DNA of 57,515 bases from a virus (taxonomy: Duplodnaviria; Caudoviricetes): the IMG/VR virus record IMGVR_UViG_3300033565_000004, positions 1 through 57,515 of that record. One strand, written 5' to 3'. The position numbers and the translations under genes are program-made. Numbering within the stretch: position 1 is the first letter of the stretch; every line of letters begins with the position of its first letter. Shown one piece after another: positions 25,393 through 33,807 of this stretch. Below the pieces are notes generated by a model. That model made no database searches and was not told where the DNA came from. It saw nothing but the letters and a program-made list of their open reading frames with translations.

Positions 25393-26301
25393 TTACTCGT
25401 TTAAATCATCAACAAAACAACCACAGCCGCCGATATCAAACATATCGATTTGCTCCGTTTTATTCGCCTCAACCTCTTCGCGCAACATCCTCAACGTCAG
25501 CGGAATCTTTACCTTATTTCGAGTCCGACGCAGCATGGCGACATCCTTGCCGAGATAATCGCGCATTTCCTGCTCCTTCTCTTCGTGGTAGCGGTAGCGT
25601 GCCGGATTCTTTTCGAGCAGATTAACGAAGTGTCCCTGGCCGGCTCTAACGCAGAAGCCTCCGCAATTGTTGTGGGCAAAATTCATTCCGTAAAGGCGCG
25701 GTACTTCAATTCTTACAGATTCTAGTAATTTGATTGCGTCAATCTTCGTCAGCAGCGGCTCCTCACACATCGGAAATTGTACTGTGTATGGCGCCCAGTT
25801 CTTGACCGGAGCTTTGGTGCGATGCTCCTCCGTCCAATCAATCCCAAGGTACAGTGTCACTTCTTCGGGCTTAAAGTTGGCTTCGATGTACTTTCGCGAC
25901 AAGTCCTGCTTAATTTTGTGCGAACATTGGGCAAGGCGACTATTACCTAGAAACCTAACGTCATGGAATATCTCCCACGGATCTTTACCGCAGTTAATCC
26001 ATACGAAATTAGGATTTCGCTCGCTTACCTTCGCAGCTAGTTCAGTTAGGAACGCTTTTCGGGCAGGCATTGTATCGTGACTAACAGGTGGAATATATGC
26101 GCATTTTGCGATTAAATCGCGCTGGTCAATCCCGTAAATGTATTGCGTCGTCTCGATGAGGAACCGGTATAAATCCTCGTCTTCGATTAGTGTGTCAGTA
26201 AATAAGCAGATAACGTTCTCGGCTCCGTGTGCTGCTACGACCCTTTTCGCGGTCATCCAACTGCCTAGCCCTCCGGAATAAAAGATAATATGTTTCGTCA
26301 A
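25393..26301 (-). CDS. PAPS-reductase-like / PP-loop adenine nucleotide alpha-hydrolase with Cys clusters
   Basis: YSGGLGS PP-loop, CSHKIK, LGID.TE..R, NNCGGFC and GGCGCF. Confidence 0.75.
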   Translation of the reverse strand: MTKHIIFYSGGLGSWMTAKRVVAAHGAENVICLFTDTLIEDEDLYRFLIETTQYIYGIDQRDLIAKCAYIPPVSHDTMPARKAFLTELAAKVSERNPNFVWINCGKDPWEIFHDVRFLGNSRLAQCSHKIKQDLSRKYIEANFKPEEVTLYLGIDWTEEHRTKAPVKNWAPYTVQFPMCEEPLLTKIDAIKLLESVRIEVPRLYGMNFAHNNCGGFCVRAGQGHFVNLLEKNPARYRYHEEKEQEMRDYLGKDVAMLRRTRNKVKIPLTLRMLREEVEANKTEQIDMFDIGGCGCFVDDLNE

Positions 26302-27017: not shown

Positions 27018-27435
27018 TAATTGCGTACCCCTCTCCGTGTCTGCTCCAGTAGTAATAAACTTCCGATATTGCCTCGATGGCGCGATCCAGCAGGTGATTG
27101 ACCGCATCCCTTGCCAGTCCGCCCATCCGTCGCCCTGCCTCTTCCTGCGTCAAGTCCTCTTCGTAGACCAGAGATAATGCGGTTTTTTGCCGCTCCGTTA
27201 AGCCCGCCAACTCCACTGCGTTACGTAAATCCGTCAGCAGAACCACCGCATCATAGTCGCCCTGATATTGCCTATTTATCAGCGCGTGGTAGTCCGATAG
27301 AAGGATGCGTAAGTTTGCTGGCGAGTCTAAAGCGGGATACTTCGCTTCAAGTGACCGCTCTTGCATGTGTAAATCGCGTTTTACGCTTCCGATAATAATT
27401 CGCCCCTTTCGTCTAATTTCGAGATAATTCGTCAT
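27004..27435 (-). CDS. Sigma-70 region 4-like HTH protein (probable late activator)
   Basis: LTERQKTALSLVYEEDLTQEEAGRRMG; the true start may be ATC at 27393. Confidence 0.75.
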   Translation of the reverse strand: MTNYLEIRRKGRIIIGSVKRDLHMQERSLEAKYPALDSPANLRILLSDYHALINRQYQGDYDAVVLLTDLRNAVELAGLTERQKTALSLVYEEDLTQEEAGRRMGGLARDAVNHLLDRAIEAISEVYYYWSRHGEGYAINGGK

Positions 27436-27446
27436 TCTAATCTAAC

Positions 27447-27475
27447 TTGCGCTTATCGTCCTAATTCGTTATAAT
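27447..27475 (+). promoter_or_regulatory. SigA-type promoter
   Basis: TTGCGC-N17-TATAAT upstream of ORF 27511. Confidence 0.7.
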
Positions 27476-27510
27476 GGCGTTAATAAATCCGTAAAAAGGA
27501 CGTGTTGTAA

Positions 27511-27873
27511 ATGTCATTCGAACCGTTAAAATTATCGCGCCACGGAGGATCCGCGCTAGTCATCGATAAACTGCACCGCCTGCGCGTTTCCTCGGCAGCC
27601 ATGCGCGAACTTAAACTCTCCGCCTACCAATACGTCGTTATTAGCGTTGACGTCGAGAATAAACGCATCGGGCTTGCGAAACAAGAGCTCGCCAAGGTGC
27701 CGAATGCTAGCGCCGTTAAAGTAGATAAGCGCGGATATCTCGGCACATCAGCGGGCAAGGAGATCATTGCGAAACTGGCGCTGACTGACGATGTGCTGCC
27801 CGCCAAGTTTGCCGACATTGGCTGGGAAGATCAGAACGGCGTCAGGTGGCGTGCATTTCAATTTTCGGAGTGA
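27511..27873 (+). CDS. Hypothetical protein, possible AbrB/MraZ-like swapped-hairpin DNA binder
   Basis: Own promoter and AAGGA RBS; two D-K-x-x-R/G motifs (IDKLHRL, VDKRGYL). Confidence 0.6.
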   Translation: MSFEPLKLSRHGGSALVIDKLHRLRVSSAAMRELKLSAYQYVVISVDVENKRIGLAKQELAKVPNASAVKVDKRGYLGTSAGKEIIAKLALTDDVLPAKFADIGWEDQNGVRWRAFQFSE

Positions 27874-27882
27874 TTGCCTATT

Positions 27883-28710
27883 TCACTCCGGCGATTCTTT
27901 TATAATCCTTTTTTTTACATCCTTATATATTTCGTCTACCCGGTTTCTTCCGTATATATTTAGCGGTGTATTAATCAATTTGTTATGGTACTCCCGAATG
28001 CCAGAACCGACTTGAAGGTTGCTGTTTTTACGGTAAATATCTTGTTTGGCAAAGTATTTAGAGAAGGCGTCTAAGGACAATTGTTTTTGTTTTGGTTTAT
28101 TTAAGTCAGCCCAAGAAAACTGAAGCATATACTCAATTAACTCTTCATTGCGATAGGGCACTACAAATTTCTTTTTACATATATCCTCAACTAACGTTTT
28201 TATTGGGAGGTATGCGGAAGAATTCAGACTCGAGAGTGTTCTCTTTCGTATAGCATCAAAAACATTTTTATCTTTAGCAGACTTAATCGCTACACTCTTT
28301 GCTGTTCCAAACAAATCATCCGCACATAACCCCGAGACAACAACTGATTCAATGATGTTAGGTAGTACGTAGAGAAATGGAAAAACGCACTGGATATTGG
28401 TTTTTCTATCTACCGGGAGCTCCTTAACAATATATTTAACATCCTCCTGCAGACGTTCAATGTCATCAGGAATTTCAATAATCACATGCTTTAGTCCATA
28501 AAACTCCGCTACTTTCGCACTAATAACGACGTCTTTGTGTACGTTACCTTCAAGATGAAACGTATAAAGCCTAGGGTAAACTCCGATATCAAGCAGCGCA
28601 AAAAGGCAAGTTAAGGAGTCGGTTCCGCCACTAAACAATAGCGCGACATCTTCACGCTCATTAATTTCCGTTTTAAGCACGTTTTGAATAAGCTCTCTAA
28701 ACTTGTGCAT
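27883..28710 (-). CDS. Asparagine-synthetase-like ATP-dependent amide ligase (synthetase domain only)
   Basis: LFSGGTDS PP-loop, SGLCADDLFG (cf. SGEGADELFG), VPY and LQVGSGI; no N-terminal Cys glutaminase domain. Confidence 0.85.
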   Translation of the reverse strand: MHKFRELIQNVLKTEINEREDVALLFSGGTDSLTCLFALLDIGVYPRLYTFHLEGNVHKDVVISAKVAEFYGLKHVIIEIPDDIERLQEDVKYIVKELPVDRKTNIQCVFPFLYVLPNIIESVVVSGLCADDLFGTAKSVAIKSAKDKNVFDAIRKRTLSSLNSSAYLPIKTLVEDICKKKFVVPYRNEELIEYMLQFSWADLNKPKQKQLSLDAFSKYFAKQDIYRKNSNLQVGSGIREYHNKLINTPLNIYGRNRVDEIYKDVKKRIIKESPE

Positions 28711-28711
28711 G

Positions 28712-29899
28712 TTATAACCTCCCTAATGAACATCCATCCGCTGGATAAGTTATTTCTTCACTGATATACCTGTTTTCGCATATGCCGATATTATCATCGA
28801 ATTCACTCCAGTACTTACAGTTGAAACACGGTATAATTTGAGAAGACATATCAAACTCCTGTATTGCTTTTCCTAATGCTTTTATTATCGGAATACTAAC
28901 GCTTCTTGATGGCCGCCTATACAGTTCAATCTCTTTGAATCCTGCGTCTTTTAACGTCATATAAGCGTAATCTGAAAAGCCCTGTAGTCGGAAAACCTCT
29001 TTCGGACTAATTCTCCGGAATCCAACTCCATCATATAAAGCGATGTCAACCGACTGATCAAGCGTCTTTGTCATCCCGTTTTTAATTCGTCCTCGTCGCG
29101 TTTTACTCGTCGTAAAAGTGTAGTCGATAGTCGTCTCGTTAGGAATCGGCTTAAAGTCCGTGTATCCTTGTATAGTACCGTCCTTAATTCGAAACATGCC
29201 GTCGCCTAAAGGCATCAAGAAATCTCCGAATTCAATATATTCGATGTTCTCGACGTCTTTTTCGATGACACTTTCGAGCGATATGCATTGGTCAGCTCCT
29301 TGAGGAAACGGGAAGTTGAAAGTTTTAACATCCGGAAAGTTCTCTTTAATCGCCTTTTTTGTAGTGTCAATTTGTTTAACTTCCGTTATTGTCCAGTCGC
29401 TGCAAACACCTTCCAACACACCTACGATAAAGACTCTGCTACGTTTTTGAGGCAGGCCGAAGTCAGTGGAAGTTAAAATTGTAAAATCAACACAATAGCC
29501 TGCGTCCGAGAGGCTCTTTGCCATTATTGAAATTGTTCTTCTTTTATCGTGATTCAAAAGACCAGGGACATTCTCCATCAATACGTATTTAGGCTTTTTT
29601 TCTTTCGCGATTCGAAGAGCCTCAAAAAATAAATTCCCTGTCTTATATTCAAACCCTAGCCTAGTGCCGTTTATAGAAAAGCCTTGGCAAGGGAACCCTC
29701 CAACTAGTATGTCGTGATCAGGAACATCAGCAGCGTCTATTTTCGTTATATCTCCGTGTACTTCCTTTTCGTTGTGCAGTATTCTATACATTTTACTAGG
29801 AATATCATCTATCTCAGATGTAAACACGCAGTCATATCCTAAAGAATCCAATCCGTACCTAAACCCACCAATTCCCGCAAATAAATCAATGTACCGCAA
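28712..29899 (-). CDS. DNA cytosine-C5 methyltransferase-family enzyme, predicted carboxymethyltransferase
   Basis: Motifs I DLFAGIGG, IV GGFPCQGFS, VI ENV, VIII QKRSR, IX RLQGF; motif X reads SRSV instead of GNSV. Confidence 0.9.
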   Translation of the reverse strand: MRYIDLFAGIGGFRYGLDSLGYDCVFTSEIDDIPSKMYRILHNEKEVHGDITKIDAADVPDHDILVGGFPCQGFSINGTRLGFEYKTGNLFFEALRIAKEKKPKYVLMENVPGLLNHDKRRTISIMAKSLSDAGYCVDFTILTSTDFGLPQKRSRVFIVGVLEGVCSDWTITEVKQIDTTKKAIKENFPDVKTFNFPFPQGADQCISLESVIEKDVENIEYIEFGDFLMPLGDGMFRIKDGTIQGYTDFKPIPNETTIDYTFTTSKTRRGRIKNGMTKTLDQSVDIALYDGVGFRRISPKEVFRLQGFSDYAYMTLKDAGFKEIELYRRPSRSVSIPIIKALGKAIQEFDMSSQIIPCFNCKYWSEFDDNIGICENRYISEEITYPADGCSLGRL

Positions 29900-29911
29900 T
29901 AGAACCCCTCC

Positions 29912-30604
29912 TTATTTTATCGCAATGAACCCCGCGAAATTCCCCCATTTAAAGAACATATCTACGTCTTTAAATCCGACCGAGTTTAGTAGTTTTATAT
30001 TTTCATCAACAGTATTTGGCTTCAGGACTCCACGGATAGAACGTGCTTTATTAAAGATGTCCGCTTCACTAACGCCGTTTCGATGTTTCATATCGTGATA
30101 CATTTCAACCCACATTTCATCGAATCTGGCATTACTTCCAATAACTTTCTCGACCATGATAAAAGCCGCGCCAATATTAAGTCCGTCGTAGATTTTCTTT
30201 ACAACTGCTTGCCTATGTTTTTGCGCGATAAACATCAACGTGAGAATGGACGTAATTAAACTGGCGTTATCAATGACGAAGTGGTTGTCGGTTATGTCTG
30301 CGTGTAAGATTTCAACGTTGCCTATTTCGCGAAATCTTTCGGCAGTTTTCGCTACCATTTCCGGAGACGTATCTATTCCGTGATAATCGACATGTTTATT
30401 CGGATACGTGCGTTCCAAGTTCGTGATGACTTCGCCTAACGAAGTTCCGATGTCATAAACATTTGTATTATCTTCCAGGAACCACCCTGACAGCCCCGTC
30501 ACTAGTTCGTGAATCTCGTTATATAACGGAACGTGGCAACGCACATGCTCATCAAATACCGGAGTGATTTCCGCGTCAAACTTCCAGGTACTTGGCGACA
30601 TCAA
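29912..30604 (-). CDS. cmoA: CmoA-like carboxy-S-adenosylmethionine synthase
   Basis: WKFD...VFDEHV..HVPLY, VYDIGTSLG, NASLITSILTLMF, EK, HDMK..NG.SE..I..K resemble CmoA throughout. Confidence 0.82.
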   Translation of the reverse strand: MMSPSTWKFDAEITPVFDEHVRCHVPLYNEIHELVTGLSGWFLEDNTNVYDIGTSLGEVITNLERTYPNKHVDYHGIDTSPEMVAKTAERFREIGNVEILHADITDNHFVIDNASLITSILTLMFIAQKHRQAVVKKIYDGLNIGAAFIMVEKVIGSNARFDEMWVEMYHDMKHRNGVSEADIFNKARSIRGVLKPNTVDENIKLLNSVGFKDVDMFFKWGNFAGFIAIK

Positions 30605-31182
30605 ATCGCCTCCAATACTGCGTCAACCTGTCGCTTCAAATCGTCAACACTTCCGTCATTAACTATTTCCGCATCCACCGCAAACCCATCAATCGCCAGC
30701 TCCGTAGAATGCACTAAGTCATTTTCGACAAAACTATCGCCAGCCCCTATCGCCCGAGCAATGCGCACCTCATCCGGAGCCGTTACGCGAATCAACGTAA
30801 AGCCATTTTCGCGACACCAGGCGACTTCGTTTTGCTGCCTAACGTCGGTCAGCACGATGCCCACTCGCTCGGCTCCGGTATTTACTCGAAAGTCAATCGC
30901 ACCCTGCACCGATCGCTCAGCGTGCTTAATCCATACGTCCGGGTCGATTTCGCGCATTAGCTGACCGAACTGCTGATATAGCGCCCGTGGCTTGGTGCCG
31001 TCGCTAATCCACGGAAAGACTGCGTGTGCGTTGCGCTTGAGTGCGTCGCCAAACGCCACTCTATCGAAGCCGTGGCGAATATAAAGGTGCTGCGCTACTT
31101 CGTCCTTGCCGGCGCGAAGCTTTCCGCAGATGGCGAGTTTGACGACGGATACTTCCCGATTAACATTTAGCGTGTGCTTCAT
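30601..31182 (-). CDS. Deoxynucleoside monophosphate kinase
   Basis: P-loop GKLRAGKD, FGDALK, R..Y.Q.G...R, DVR..NE and HSTE. Confidence 0.85.
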   Translation of the reverse strand: MKHTLNVNREVSVVKLAICGKLRAGKDEVAQHLYIRHGFDRVAFGDALKRNAHAVFPWISDGTKPRALYQQFGQLMREIDPDVWIKHAERSVQGAIDFRVNTGAERVGIVLTDVRQQNEVAWCRENGFTLIRVTAPDEVRIARAIGAGDSFVENDLVHSTELAIDGFAVDAEIVNDGSVDDLKRQVDAVLEAI

Positions 31183-31694
31183 CGGCTAGCACCTTCGATT
31201 AAATAATCGACTACCCATCTCGGAAGCGTAACTGTGTCCTCCGGTGCATCTTCTTTCGACTGTGTCCGTTCATCTAATTCGCGAATGTCATCCTCGTTTG
31301 ATAACGTTAAGACTTCGATATGCCCTACGCCCCGCTTCAGTTCCTCGAGCTCCTCCGCCTGACGCTCGACGTTGCGCTGTGTGTCGCGTAGTTGAGATTC
31401 AAGCGAAACTATCTTCCGTGATAATGCGGTAAACATTTCGATGACGGCCGGAGAGGCTTGCGATGTGTCGACCGTGACTTCTTCGCCAACTTCGGCAAGT
31501 ACAACGTAATCGTCGTGAAAAAATCCGTGAACGTGTCCGAACGACCTTGCGACGATAGCAAAATAGCCGTCAACATCTTTGACTGTGTACAACTCGCCTG
31601 ACCGATCCGAGTAACTTTTAATTTTATCGCCAACTTCCGCCTTCCGATCGACCTCAACGTAAGTTTTACCGCCAATTACATGCGTTTTACTCAT
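31179..31694 (-). CDS. Hypothetical protein (SH3-like N-terminus plus coiled coil)
   Basis: RKAEVGDKI motif; translational coupling to neighbours. Confidence 0.65.
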   Translation of the reverse strand: MSKTHVIGGKTYVEVDRKAEVGDKIKSYSDRSGELYTVKDVDGYFAIVARSFGHVHGFFHDDYVVLAEVGEEVTVDTSQASPAVIEMFTALSRKIVSLESQLRDTQRNVERQAEELEELKRGVGHIEVLTLSNEDDIRELDERTQSKEDAPEDTVTLPRWVVDYLIEGASR

Positions 31695-33246: not shown

Positions 33247-33807
33247 TTATTCGTCCTCCCTCGTTAATAAGCCAAGGTGTTTCCAAGTTTTACCGTGCCT
33301 GATATTCAAAATAGTTTTCTTAGAGACTCCGTATTCCTTCGCTATTGTTGTGCAGCCTCTTATGTCGTTAAAGATATCGAGAACTTGGCTTTCAGTAAGT
33401 TTAGACCCGATAACGGCTTCTCCCACCGGTTTACGCTTTTTGGTAATCATGTCTTTCGTATTCTCTTTGGGAGTTCCTAACGACAGGTGATCTGGATTTA
33501 TACACTCAGGGTTGTCGCATGAATGCATCACAAACTTTTTGTCGTCAATATAGCCGTTTTTAACTTTAAAAACATACCGACTAAGTCTTTGGTGTTTACC
33601 ACCTCTATCTATAACAGGGTAGTTTCTACGGTGTTTAGCCTTAGCATGACTGGTACAAATCCAGCATCCATTTTTGTTAATAAAATACTTAATCTCTTTA
33701 AAACTACCACAGTCTCTTAACGGCACGTATCCGTCATCGAATGTAAACTCAGCGTACTCCGGATGACCCAAAGGAACCACCGCCTCTTTCTGTGTCCTCA
33801 ATCTCAC
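33247..33807 (-). CDS. Free-standing HNH homing endonuclease with C-terminal HTH
   Basis: GCW, VMHSCDNPECINPDHL..GT..EN..DM, SKLTE; AT-rich; start uncertain. Confidence 0.88.
   Translation of the reverse strand: MRLRTQKEAVVPLGHPEYAEFTFDDGYVPLRDCGSFKEIKYFINKNGCWICTSHAKAKHRRNYPVIDRGGKHQRLSRYVFKVKNGYIDDKKFVMHSCDNPECINPDHLSLGTPKENTKDMITKKRKPVGEAVIGSKLTESQVLDIFNDIRGCTTIAKEYGVSKKTILNIRHGKTWKHLGLLTREDE

What the first reader, a model, noticed from the sequence alone, without database searches (positions are those of the whole stretch)
27883..30604. Three-gene DNA hypermodification cassette: carboxy-SAM synthase, cytosine carboxymethyltransferase and amide ligase
Seen: three tightly packed minus-strand genes, visibly more AT-rich than the flanks, sit after the dNMP kinase. 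They encode a CmoA-like protein, a C5-cytosine MTase and an asparagine-synthetase-like enzyme. Known: CmoA makes carboxy-SAM (Cx-SAM) from SAM and prephenate for tRNA cmo5U together with CmoB. No CmoB is present here, and B. subtilis uses mo5U, so a phage would need its own Cx-SAM source. Asn-synthetase domains adenylate a carboxyl group and amidate it. Inference: the pathway is C -> 5-carboxymethyl-C -> an amide-linked hypermodified C in phage DNA, as anti-restriction armour. From memory, similar chemistry has been reported in a cyanophage (check the literature). Novelty here would be the temperate Bacillus-type host, the target site and the attached amine.
Basis: partly seen in the sequence, partly recalled or inferred. 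Interest (0 to 1): 0.93.

Follow-up and report, generated by a model that had tools for sequence, protein, structure and literature searches.

The report
Phage cytosine carboxymethylation and amidation cassette
A Bacillus-type phage carries three adjacent genes that most likely add a carboxymethyl group to cytosines in its DNA and then link an amine to it, a recently published kind of DNA armour, here built on a different methyltransferase lineage.

Summary
Three tightly packed minus-strand genes (27883-30604, GC 0.40 against 0.458 for the record) follow the dNMP kinase. They encode a CmoA-like Cx-SAM synthase, a C5-cytosine methyltransferase and a glutaminase-less asparagine-synthetase-like ligase. 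It is already in print as the CmoA/CmoX/CmoY system of Synechococcus phage S-B43 (Yang et al., Nat Commun 2025, PMC12783734), which makes 5cxmC and then its glycine amide.

The ligase is a full-length homologue of SpCmoY (33% identity). The CmoA-like protein fits the bacterial CmoA model better than the proven SpCmoA does. The methyltransferase carries Arg332 where M.HhaI has Asn304, the position of SpCmoX's Cx-SAM-binding Arg350.

What is new:
- The methyltransferase is M.HhaI-like (GFPCQ, not the 'SPPC' of the published census) and lies in a small Arg-bearing clade among ordinary methyltransferases.
- It has a four-cysteine tail.
- The phage's nearest cultured relative is a Bacillus siphovirus. 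Similar triads appear to occur in Bacillaceae genomes.

The target site and the attached amine remain unknown. 'Temperate' is not supported: no integrase was found. Verdict: a real feature, a new variant of a known kind, of moderate interest.

The parts
29912..30604 (-). CmoA-like carboxy-SAM (Cx-SAM) synthase, 230 aa, TTG start overlapping the dNMP kinase stop by 4 nt
   Evidence: TIGR00740 E 1.8e-47, 162 bits (cut-off 193.3; the proven SpCmoA scores 115.6). E. coli CmoA structure 4GEK E 3.2e-34 over residues 6-230. 34% identity to SpCmoA. phrog_4752.
28712..29899 (-). C5-cytosine DNA methyltransferase-family enzyme, 395 aa; candidate DNA cytosine C5-carboxymethyltransferase (works like CmoX) of an M.HhaI-like lineage
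   Evidence: PF00145 E 2e-72. M.HhaI E 7.6e-45 over residues 1-159. Model pLDDT 85.2, with M.HhaI as best PDB fold and 8YF3 at rank 37. Catalytic residues: C71 in GFPCQ, E109-N-V, R153/R155.
28904..28915 (-). Motif X with Arg329 and Arg332 (R-P-S-R), where ordinary C5-methyltransferases have Q-x-G-N
   Evidence: R332 falls in the column of SpCmoX R350 and M.HhaI N304. Of the 150 nearest cluster representatives, 137 have GN and only the 3 closest have this Arg. Codons checked.
28715..28852 (-). C-terminal tail of the methyltransferase with four cysteines (C358, C361, C374, C390; CxxC-x12-C-x15-C); function unknown, possibly metal-binding
   Evidence: The spacing is conserved in L005. Cysteine-rich tails (4-6 Cys) occur in 4 of the 24 clade clusters examined, the window's own included. 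The model is of low confidence here, pLDDT below 50. No Pfam or Atlas lead.
27883..28710 (-). CmoY-like ATP-dependent (AMP-forming) amide ligase, 275 aa; asparagine-synthetase synthetase domain only; PP-loop SGGTDS at residues 27-32
   Evidence: PF00733 E 1.3e-8. 33% identity, E 2e-43, near full length to SpCmoY. Best hits among cultured phages are three Synechococcus phage records tied at E 2e-34 (S-B05, RB11-B, S-B43), among them S-B43's own 'putative asparagine synthase'. Model pLDDT 93.5; best folds are Asn synthetase, beta-lactam synthetase and carbapenam synthetase, TMq 0.73-0.78.
30601..31182 (-). dNMP kinase, the upstream gene of the same transcription direction (context; left border of the insertion slot)
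   Evidence: PF21448 E 1.6e-9. The order ThyX, transglycosylase, SprT-like, hypothetical, dNMP kinase matches Bacillus phage KLEB27-1.
27511..27873 (+). Opposite-strand 120-aa ORF converging on the ligase gene (context; right border of the slot)
   Evidence: phrog_18159, unknown function. 32% identity (E 2e-7) to KLEB27-1 gp90, which is likewise opposite-strand next to the dNMP kinase.

Best explanation
The cassette is a post-replicative DNA cytosine hypermodification module of the CmoA/CmoX/CmoY type.

Step 1 (inferred from homology): the CmoA-like enzyme converts SAM plus prephenate into carboxy-SAM. A Bacillus-type host that uses mo5U in its tRNA would not supply this cofactor.

Step 2 (inferred from homology and the active-site signature): the M.HhaI-like C5-methyltransferase flips out its target cytosine and attacks C6 with Cys71. 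It then transfers the carboxymethyl group of Cx-SAM to C5. Arg332, and perhaps Arg329, take the place of the usual Asn and Gln of motif X and hold the cofactor's extra carboxylate. The product is 5-carboxymethylcytosine in a sequence context set by the enzyme's own recognition domain.

Step 3 (inferred from homology): the glutaminase-less asparagine-synthetase-like ligase adenylates that carboxyl group with ATP through its PP-loop and joins an amine to it. By analogy with SpCmoY the amine is glycine or another small amino acid, but its identity is open.

The product would shield phage DNA from restriction enzymes and other DNA-targeting defences. The module sits in a variable DNA-modification slot, where the nearest cultured relative carries an N6-adenine methyltransferase instead. 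Its low GC suggests acquisition by horizontal transfer.
For: Homology to the characterised system:
- Ligase: 33% identity, E 2e-43, to SpCmoY.
- CmoA: 34% identity to SpCmoA. It scores 162 bits on TIGR00740, against 115.6 for the biochemically proven SpCmoA.
- Biochemistry of the S-B43 enzymes was read in PMC12783734.

Active-site signature:
- R332 aligns with SpCmoX R350 and M.HhaI N304.
- An Arg three residues before it is also shared with the published family (RRPSR here, ERxGR there), where ordinary enzymes have Q.

Specificity of the signature:
- Of the 150 nearest 50%-cluster representatives, 137 have GN. Only the 3 closest have the Arg. Two further 'R' calls are low-scoring misalignments; 6 gave no residue and 2 gave spurious K or Q.
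- Of 160 loci fetched through N-terminal methyltransferase patterns, 112 were Asn-type, and none of these had a CmoA or CmoY homologue within 5 kb. 46 were undetermined. One was Arg-type with both genes, and one 'R' was a misalignment.

Co-occurrence:
- L005 (72% identical methyltransferase) and L006 carry all three genes in other orders.
- Of 80 viral loci with a CmoY homologue, 63 had CmoA plus an Arg-type methyltransferase.
- Nine contigs appear to hold close homologues of all three proteins. One of them (795,261 bp) is named Lederbergia citrisecunda.

Other support:
- The B. subtilis control genome gave no hit to the CmoA model. There is no CmoB in the record.
- The ligase model has a confident Asn-synthetase-type fold and an intact PP-loop.
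- Slot synteny with KLEB27-1.
Against: - No chemistry was or could be measured here. All three activities are inferred.
- The methyltransferase is only about 26% identical to SpCmoX, over the N-terminal half. It lacks the literal 'SPPC' motif used in the published census. By sequence and fold it is closer to the ordinary 5mC enzyme M.HhaI.
- In SpCmoX, R350N lost all activity rather than switching to SAM. The Arg is therefore necessary there but not shown to be sufficient.
- The CmoA-like protein is below NCBIfam's curated cut-off. I could not retrieve CmoA's catalytic residues from the papers I opened.
- The glycine-binding residues of SpCmoY are only in a supplement that I could not see. The window's ligase differs from the cyanophage clade in two C-terminal blocks.
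- The host is unknown.
Confidence: 0.8

Rival explanations
1. The pathway is the same, but the ligase attaches an amine other than glycine (ammonia, another amino acid or a polyamine). The final base would then be a new amide of 5cxmC rather than 5-glycyl-cxmC.
For: - Identity to SpCmoY is only 33%.
- The window's clade differs from the cyanophage clade in blocks near the C-terminus (IYRKNSNLQVG-SGIREYH against TVKDHINLQLG-SNIDHLF).
- The paper states that several ligase clusters have distinct active-site residues and may use other amines.
Against: - The columns that are invariant or nearly so, including the basic residues K103, R155, K207 and K209, are shared by both clades.
- According to the paper, the largest cluster and several smaller ones keep the glycine-carboxylate binding residues. 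Which residues these are is in a supplement I could not see.
- There is no glutaminase domain for making ammonia.
Confidence: 0.35
2. The methyltransferase is an ordinary SAM-dependent 5mC enzyme. The CmoA-like and ligase genes serve something else, such as host tRNA or a small molecule, and lie next to it by chance.
For: - The enzyme is closest to M.HhaI in sequence and fold and keeps the canonical GFPCQ, ENV and RxR motifs.
- The neighbouring slot in a related phage holds a plain N6 methyltransferase.
Against: - Asn to Arg at the cofactor-methyl position occurs only in the 3 nearest of 150 relatives.
- None of 112 Asn-type relatives has CmoA or CmoY nearby, whereas the Arg-type loci do.
- There is no CmoB to use Cx-SAM on tRNA.
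- The three genes travel together in different orders.
Confidence: 0.07
3. The main benefit of the CmoA-like gene is to drain host SAM and so blunt SAM-dependent defences. DNA modification would be secondary.
For: The paper's Discussion raises this as an open question. Nothing in the window bears on it directly.
Against: - CmoA is coupled to an Arg-type methyltransferase in 63 of 80 CmoY-bearing loci, which argues that Cx-SAM is used as a cofactor.
- This reading does not exclude the best explanation.
Confidence: 0.05
4. Modification takes place on free nucleotides (dCMP or dCTP) before incorporation, helped by the adjacent dNMP kinase, and not on DNA.
For: The cassette directly follows, and overlaps, a dNMP kinase. 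It lies in a nucleotide-metabolism block with ThyX, dUTPase and a ribonucleotide reductase.
Against: - The enzyme is a full DNA methyltransferase with a large variable recognition region between motifs VIII and IX.
- SpCmoX and SpCmoY act on double-stranded DNA.
- The same dNMP kinase block exists in KLEB27-1, which has no C5-methyltransferase at all.
Confidence: 0.03

Closest known systems
CmoA/CmoX/CmoY of Synechococcus phage S-B43 (Yang et al., Nat Commun 2025, PMC12783734; SpCmoX structure 8YF3)
   Same: - The same three enzyme types in one cluster.
- Ligase 33% and CmoA 34% identical.
- The methyltransferase has Arg at the R350 position, plus an Arg three residues earlier.
- No CmoB.
   Different: - Gene order is A-X-Y here and A-Y-X there.
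- The methyltransferase is only about 26% identical, has GFPCQ and not SPPC, and sits in another part of the tree. However, a single origin of all Arg-type enzymes is not rejected (AU p 0.08).
- It has an extra four-cysteine tail.
- The phage is a ~57-kb Bacillus-type siphovirus, not a ~214-kb cyanomyovirus.
- The target motif (GC in S-B43) and the amine (glycine in S-B43) are unknown here.
M.HhaI (GCGC 5mC methyltransferase; PDB 1MHT and others)
   Same: - Best sequence and fold match (E 7.6e-45 over residues 1-159; Foldseek rank 1, TM 0.77-0.79 on the target).
- Same motif IV (GFPCQ), ENV and RxR.
   Different: - Motif X is YRRPSRSV against YKQFGNSV, so N304 becomes R332 and Q301 becomes R329.
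- The recognition region is longer and not alignable.
- M.HhaI uses SAM.
Engineered M.MpeI N374K (Cx-SAM-accepting CpG methyltransferase)
   Same: A positive residue replaces the motif-X Asn to accept Cx-SAM, as described in the Discussion of PMC12783734.
   Different: It is man-made, has Lys and not Arg, and is CpG-specific. M.MpeI is a more distant fold match (rank 16-18).
E. coli CmoA/CmoB (tRNA cmo5U pathway; 4GEK)
   Same: The CmoA-like protein aligns end to end with E. coli CmoA (E 3.2e-34).
   Different: No CmoB is present. The carboxymethyl acceptor is inferred to be DNA cytosine, not tRNA ho5U.
Asparagine synthetase B, beta-lactam synthetase, carbapenam synthetase (AMP-forming carboxylate-activating enzymes)
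   Same: Same synthetase-domain fold and PP-loop (TMq 0.73-0.78).
   Different: - The N-terminal glutaminase domain is absent (275 aa against about 500).
- Sequence identity is 12-19%.
- The substrate is inferred to be a carboxyl group on DNA.
CmoA-methyltransferase pairs of Staphylococcus phages vB-SscS-F1 and SPbeta-like
   Same: - Closest CmoA among cultured phages (47% and 44%).
- F1 also has a CmoY-like gene (30% identity).
- The recognition-region block TSKTRRGR is shared with F1; SPbeta-like has TSKARRGR.
   Different: Their methyltransferases have Gly, not Arg or Asn, at the motif-X position (VGGVIN) and SPCQ in motif IV. Their activity has not been studied as far as my searches show.

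Membership tests
CmoA (carboxy-SAM synthase) | Full-length match to the curated CmoA model (TIGR00740) | tested here: inconclusive
   E 1.8e-47 and 162 bits over model positions 14-239, below the curated cut-off of 193.3. The biochemically proven phage SpCmoA scores only 115.6 bits.
CmoA (carboxy-SAM synthase) | Catalytic and Cx-SAM/prephenate-binding residues | not tested
   The residues were not named in the passages I could read. I recall, from no call, an Arg199 of E. coli CmoA. In the ungapped alignment that position would fall one residue before an Arg of the window's protein, so no conclusion is drawn.
CmoA (carboxy-SAM synthase) | [quoted passage not shown] | not testable with these tools
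   Needs an enzyme assay.
CmoX (DNA cytosine C5-carboxymethyltransferase) | C5-methyltransferase fold with catalytic Cys, ENV Glu and RxR Arg | tested here: met
   PF00145 E 2e-72. C71, E109, R153 and R155. Model pLDDT 85.2, with M.HhaI and 8YF3 among the fold matches.
CmoX (DNA cytosine C5-carboxymethyltransferase) | Arg in place of the motif-X Asn (SpCmoX R350, M.HhaI N304) | tested here: met
   R332 lies in that column in alignments A1 and A2 and in the profile alignment to 8YF3 and M.HhaI.
CmoX (DNA cytosine C5-carboxymethyltransferase) | 'SPPC' motif IV, used as a filter in the published census of 5,615 sequences | tested here: not met
   The window has GFPCQ. Of the 67 Arg-type loci found through CmoY, 66 have SPPC; the only GFPCQ one is the contig of L005. 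The enzyme works like CmoX but is not a member of the SpCmoX sequence clade (tree).
CmoX (DNA cytosine C5-carboxymethyltransferase) | Genomic association with CmoA | tested here: met
   A 12-nt gap separates it from CmoA. The same association is seen in L005 and L006 and by contig-length matching in 11 of 22 related clusters.
CmoX (DNA cytosine C5-carboxymethyltransferase) | Transfers carboxymethyl from Cx-SAM to DNA cytosine C5; GC target motif | not testable with these tools
   Needs LC-MS and modification mapping. The only hint is a weak one: GCGC and CCGG are not depleted in the genome, while GATC, GGCC, CGCG and AGCT are.
CmoY (5cxmC amide ligase) | Full-length homology to SpCmoY | tested here: met
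   33% identity, E 2e-43, residues 7-264 of 275. Three Synechococcus phage records tie as best cultured-phage hit at E 2e-34, among them S-B43's own gene.
CmoY (5cxmC amide ligase) | Asn-synthetase synthetase domain with PP-loop and no glutaminase domain | tested here: met
   PF00733. SGGTDS at residues 27-32. Fold matches to AsnB, beta-lactam synthetase and carbapenam synthetase C-domains.
CmoY (5cxmC amide ligase) | Residues that bind the glycine carboxylate | not testable with these tools

The most novel reading that the evidence does not exclude
An ordinary M.HhaI-type methyltransferase lineage was recruited to Cx-SAM separately from the published SPPC-type CmoX, by the same double change in motif X (Q to R and N to R).

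With its own recognition domain, a metal-binding four-cysteine tail and a divergent ligase, it would write a different amide of 5-carboxymethylcytosine, at a different sequence motif, into the DNA of Bacillaceae phages. The published census of natural carboxymethyltransferases would then be an undercount. A two-residue switch would be a general route from methyl to carboxymethyl transfer.
Probability: 0.3. Interest if true: 0.7.

Novelty: new variant of a known kind. Interest (0 to 1): 0.5.

Why it matters
Natural 5-carboxymethylcytosine and its glycine amide were first reported in December 2025, from one cyanophage.

This window extends the system to a Bacillus-type siphovirus and, apparently, to chromosomes of spore-forming Bacillaceae. 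It also shows the cofactor-switching arginine on an M.HhaI-like scaffold that the published sequence filter (SPPC plus R350) would not have counted.

This gives a second, well-understood scaffold for asking which residues turn a methyltransferase into a carboxymethyltransferase. That question bears on enzymatic DNA-labelling tools. It also gives a tractable Gram-positive setting (a host without its own Cx-SAM, and B. subtilis genetics) for testing what the modification protects against and which amine is attached.

Tried and rejected
- Independent origin of the Arg-type methyltransferases. The tree puts the window's clade (support 100) among Asn-type enzymes and apart from the SPPC clade (support 99). 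The AU test of a single clade of all 18 Arg-type rows gave p 0.0825 and a log-likelihood difference of 36 (the first run, did not finish). A single origin is therefore not rejected, and I do not claim convergence. The group was also named after the tree had been seen.
- Near-identical DNA among cultured phages: none.
- First scan with N-terminal methyltransferase patterns. It returned mostly ordinary methyltransferases, which I used only as a comparison set.
- The four-cysteine tail. There is no Pfam hit, the model is of low confidence and the Atlas gave no lead. A weak NCBIfam hit of the L005 homologue to the small subunit of 4-hydroxyphenylacetate decarboxylase (E 6.8e-4) is too weak to use.
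- Promoter and terminator scan of 27300-31400: fewer sites than in shuffled sequence.
- Target site from palindrome statistics: only a weak hint, not used for the verdict.
- CmoA catalytic residues: not found in the passages I read.
- ParB_N protein, reported as common on CmoX contigs: none here.
- Earlier findings of this scan were not open.
Full report
**What is there**

The window is a whole IMG/VR virus record of 57,515 bp, estimated about 90% complete. At the stated coordinates lie three minus-strand ORFs: 29912-30604 (230 aa), 28712-29899 (395 aa) and 27883-28710 (275 aa).

- The first overlaps the upstream gene by 4 nt. The next two follow after 12 nt and 1 nt. Each has a strong Shine-Dalgarno-like sequence.
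- The cassette has GC 0.400, against 0.458 for the record and 0.53-0.56 for the dNMP-kinase flank.
- Family searches give CmoA (TIGR00740, E 1.8e-47), C5 DNA methylase (PF00145, E 2e-72) and the synthetase half of asparagine synthase (PF00733, E 1.3e-8). The upstream gene is a dNMP kinase (PF21448).

**It is a published system**

A search for carboxymethylcytosine in phages led to Yang et al., Nat Commun 2025 (PMC12783734). I read its abstract, Results and Discussion.

- In Synechococcus phage S-B43, CmoA makes Cx-SAM.
- The C5-methyltransferase homologue CmoX writes 5-carboxymethylcytosine at GC sites. Arg350 replaces M.HhaI Asn304 and contacts the cofactor's carboxymethyl group.
- The asparagine-synthetase homologue CmoY ligates glycine to the new carboxyl group with ATP.
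- The authors report 5,615 candidate CmoX sequences, selected for an 'SPPC' motif plus R350, with 4,257 CmoA genes and 2,251 ligases on the same contigs.
- Further searches found no other paper on natural phage systems of this kind. The main text of this paper names no Bacillus, Staphylococcus or Erwinia phage.

**Homology of the three proteins to the S-B43 enzymes (locus L004)**

- The ligase is 33% identical to SpCmoY over nearly its whole length (E 2e-43). Three Synechococcus phage records tie as its best hit among 50,697 cultured phage records, one of them S-B43's own gene.
- Its AlphaFold model is confident (pLDDT 93.5). It superposes best on the synthetase domains of asparagine synthetase, beta-lactam synthetase and carbapenam synthetase (TMq 0.73-0.78). 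The PP-loop SGGTDS is intact, and there is no glutaminase domain.
- The CmoA-like protein is 34% identical to SpCmoA and aligns end to end with E. coli CmoA (4GEK, E 3.2e-34).
- It scores 162 bits on TIGR00740. That is under the curated 193.3, but well above the 115.6 bits of SpCmoA, which is a proven and fast Cx-SAM synthase.

**The methyltransferase**

It is only about 26% identical to SpCmoX, over the N-terminal half. M.HhaI is its best sequence match in the PDB (E 7.6e-45 over residues 1-159) and its best fold match. 8YF3 (SpCmoX) is only at rank 37. It has the canonical GFPCQ motif IV, not SPPC.

Its motif X nevertheless reads YRRPSRSV. In alignments with SpCmoX-type enzymes, and in a profile alignment to 8YF3 and M.HhaI, Arg332 falls in the column of R350 and N304. 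Arg329 falls in the column where ordinary enzymes have Gln (M.HhaI YKQFGNSV). The published family also has Arg there (ERVGR).

**How specific this signature is**

- Nearest relatives. Among the 150 nearest representatives of 1.84 billion proteins, 137 have the ordinary GN. Only the three closest (58, 57 and 52% identity) have RP[SA]RS. Two other 'R' calls are low-scoring misalignments, six gave no aligned residue, and two gave spurious K or Q.
- The window's own clade. A second search with the C-terminal half found 22 further 90% clusters of this clade. Adding the window's own cluster and P0080 from the representative search gives 24 sequences. Of these, 21 match Y.R[PA][SA]R[ST][IV]. The three that do not match differ elsewhere in the pattern. 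For example, P0080 reads LLERPARSI.
- Comparison loci. Of 160 loci fetched through N-terminal methyltransferase patterns (80 viral, 80 from genomes), 112 were Asn-type. None of these had a CmoA or CmoY homologue within 5 kb. 46 could not be typed. One was Arg-type with both genes (the same contig as L005). One apparent 'R' was a misalignment.

**Co-occurrence**

- L005, whose methyltransferase is 72% identical, has the order ligase, CmoA, methyltransferase.
- L006 has CmoA, ligase, an Arg-type GFPC methyltransferase, and then a second C5-methyltransferase.
- Of 80 viral loci fetched through a CmoY profile:
  - 63 had CmoA plus an Arg-type methyltransferase.
  - 4 had the Arg-type enzyme but no CmoA in the stretch held.
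  - 3 had CmoA but no methyltransferase.
  - 8 had neither.
  - 1 had CmoA plus a Gly-type enzyme.
  - 1 was ambiguous.
- Of the 67 Arg-type loci, 66 were SPPC-type. Only the L005 contig was GFPCQ-type.
- For the window's own clade, the three protein searches list identical 'longest contig' lengths for homologues of all three proteins in nine cases. One of them (795,261 bp) is named Lederbergia citrisecunda in all three lists. CmoA and ligase homologues with adjacent locus tags are listed for Priestia filamentosa. This is an inference from lengths, because contig identities are not given.

**Is the Arg state of independent origin?**

A 43-row maximum-likelihood tree places the window's clade (support 100) among Asn-type GFPCQ enzymes. 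The SPPC clade (support 99) lies elsewhere, and L006 in a third place. An AU test of one clade for all 18 Arg-type rows gave p 0.0825. A single origin is therefore not rejected, and I leave this open.

**Host and genomic setting**

- The large terminase is 70% identical to that of Bacillus phage vB_BauS_KLEB27-1, followed by other Bacillus, Sporosarcina and Paenibacillus phages.
- The gene order ThyX, transglycosylase, SprT-like, hypothetical, dNMP kinase, [slot], sigma factor is shared with KLEB27-1.
- In that phage the slot holds an N6-adenine methyltransferase-like gene. That phage has no C5-methyltransferase at all.
- The cassette therefore looks like an exchangeable module in a DNA-modification slot, in keeping with its low GC.
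- The B. subtilis control genome gave no hit to the CmoA model. The record has no CmoB. Abstracts seen in the search listing state that Gram-positives mainly use mo5U (PMC6158493, PMC10516636).
- No tyrosine or serine integrase is present. The phage encodes its own polymerase, primase, helicase and loader. 'Temperate' is therefore not supported for this record.

**Mechanism and what stays open**

The most likely mechanism is the S-B43 one:
1. CmoA makes Cx-SAM.
2. The methyltransferase writes 5cxmC, with Cys71 as nucleophile and Arg332 (perhaps with Arg329) holding the cofactor's carboxylate.
3. The ligase adenylates the new carboxyl group and amidates it.

All three steps are inferred; none is shown here. 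I put 0.8 on this pathway.

- The amine. I give glycine roughly even odds. The residues that bind it in SpCmoY are in a supplement I could not see, and the window's ligase clade differs from the cyanophage clade in two C-terminal blocks.
- The target sequence. GCGC and CCGG are at expected frequency in the genome, while GATC, GGCC, CGCG and AGCT are depleted. This is a weak hint only.
- The four-cysteine tail (C358, C361, C374, C390). It is shared with L005 and a few close clusters, and it is unexplained.

**Verdict**

The chemistry is already published. This is a new variant of that kind: an M.HhaI-like methyltransferase lineage outside the published sequence filter, in a Bacillus-type phage. 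Interest is moderate.

Noticed in passing
window 28715-28852 (minus strand): The methyltransferase ends in a tail with four cysteines (CxxC-x12-C-x15-C). L005 conserves the same spacing, and three close clusters carry similar cysteine-rich tails (4-6 Cys). The other clade members, SpCmoX and M.HhaI lack it. It may bind zinc or an iron-sulfur cluster. The model is of low confidence there.
   Followed up: partly
L001 5506-6513 (Staphylococcus phage vB-SscS-F1), L002 4693-5691 (SPbeta-like), L172: A third kind of CmoA-linked C5-methyltransferase has Gly at the motif-X position, not Arg or Asn (VGGVIN; L172 ERCSG). The Staphylococcus enzymes form a very long branch in the tree. Whether they use Cx-SAM is unknown.
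   Followed up: partly
protein P0079 (684 aa, 57% identical relative of the window's methyltransferase): An intein-like insert of about 330 residues sits directly after the catalytic Cys of motif IV (GGFPC...HNCQSFS). Pfam intein and LAGLIDADG families are precomputed for it.
   Followed up: no
proteins P0080, P0239, P0246-P0248: Several Arg-type relatives have GITCQ in motif IV, with Thr in place of the usually invariant Pro before the catalytic Cys.
   Followed up: no
window 25393-26301 (minus strand): A 302-aa protein with an N-terminal PP-loop-like SGGLGS matches phrog_424 ('phosphoadenosine phosphosulfate reductase', E 1.5e-46) but no Pfam or NCBIfam model. It lies 1.6 kb from the cassette and may be another nucleic-acid-modifying enzyme.
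   Followed up: partly
whole window: Four-base palindromes GATC (observed/expected 0.45), GGCC (0.51), CGCG (0.60) and AGCT (0.65) are depleted. GCGC (1.03) and CCGG (0.99) are not.
   Followed up: partly
L007 7932-8681 (Bacillus phage KLEB27-1 gp91) against window 27883-30604: The nearest cultured relative carries an N6-adenine methyltransferase-like gene between the dNMP kinase and the sigma factor, where the window has the three-gene cassette. The slot holds exchangeable DNA-modification genes.
   Followed up: yes
window 33247-33807 (minus strand): An HNH endonuclease gene (phrog_59, E 5.7e-29) sits in a low-GC patch between the ThyX and dUTPase-like genes. It looks like a homing endonuclease insertion.
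   Followed up: no
L249 3044-4737 and L251 (Erwinia phage pEa_SNUABM_5): In this jumbo phage the CmoA and CmoY homologues are adjacent. The only C5-methyltransferase (motif X ERLGR, so Arg-type) lies about 18 kb away in a 704-aa open frame with a large insert. 48 Erwinia phage records hit both the window's CmoA and its ligase.
   Followed up: partly
L182, L188, L190, L192, L217, L219-L221, L245-L247; L006 4874-5869: Many marine CmoY loci carry two Arg-type SPPC methyltransferases in tandem. L006 carries a second C5-methyltransferase right after its Arg-type one. This suggests more than one target motif per phage.
   Followed up: no
window 27866-27891: An 8-bp perfect inverted repeat (CGGAGTGA ... 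TCACTCCG) spans the 9-nt gap between the convergent stop codons of the ligase gene and the opposite-strand ORF. It may be a two-way terminator hairpin. The consensus terminator scan did not list it.
   Followed up: no
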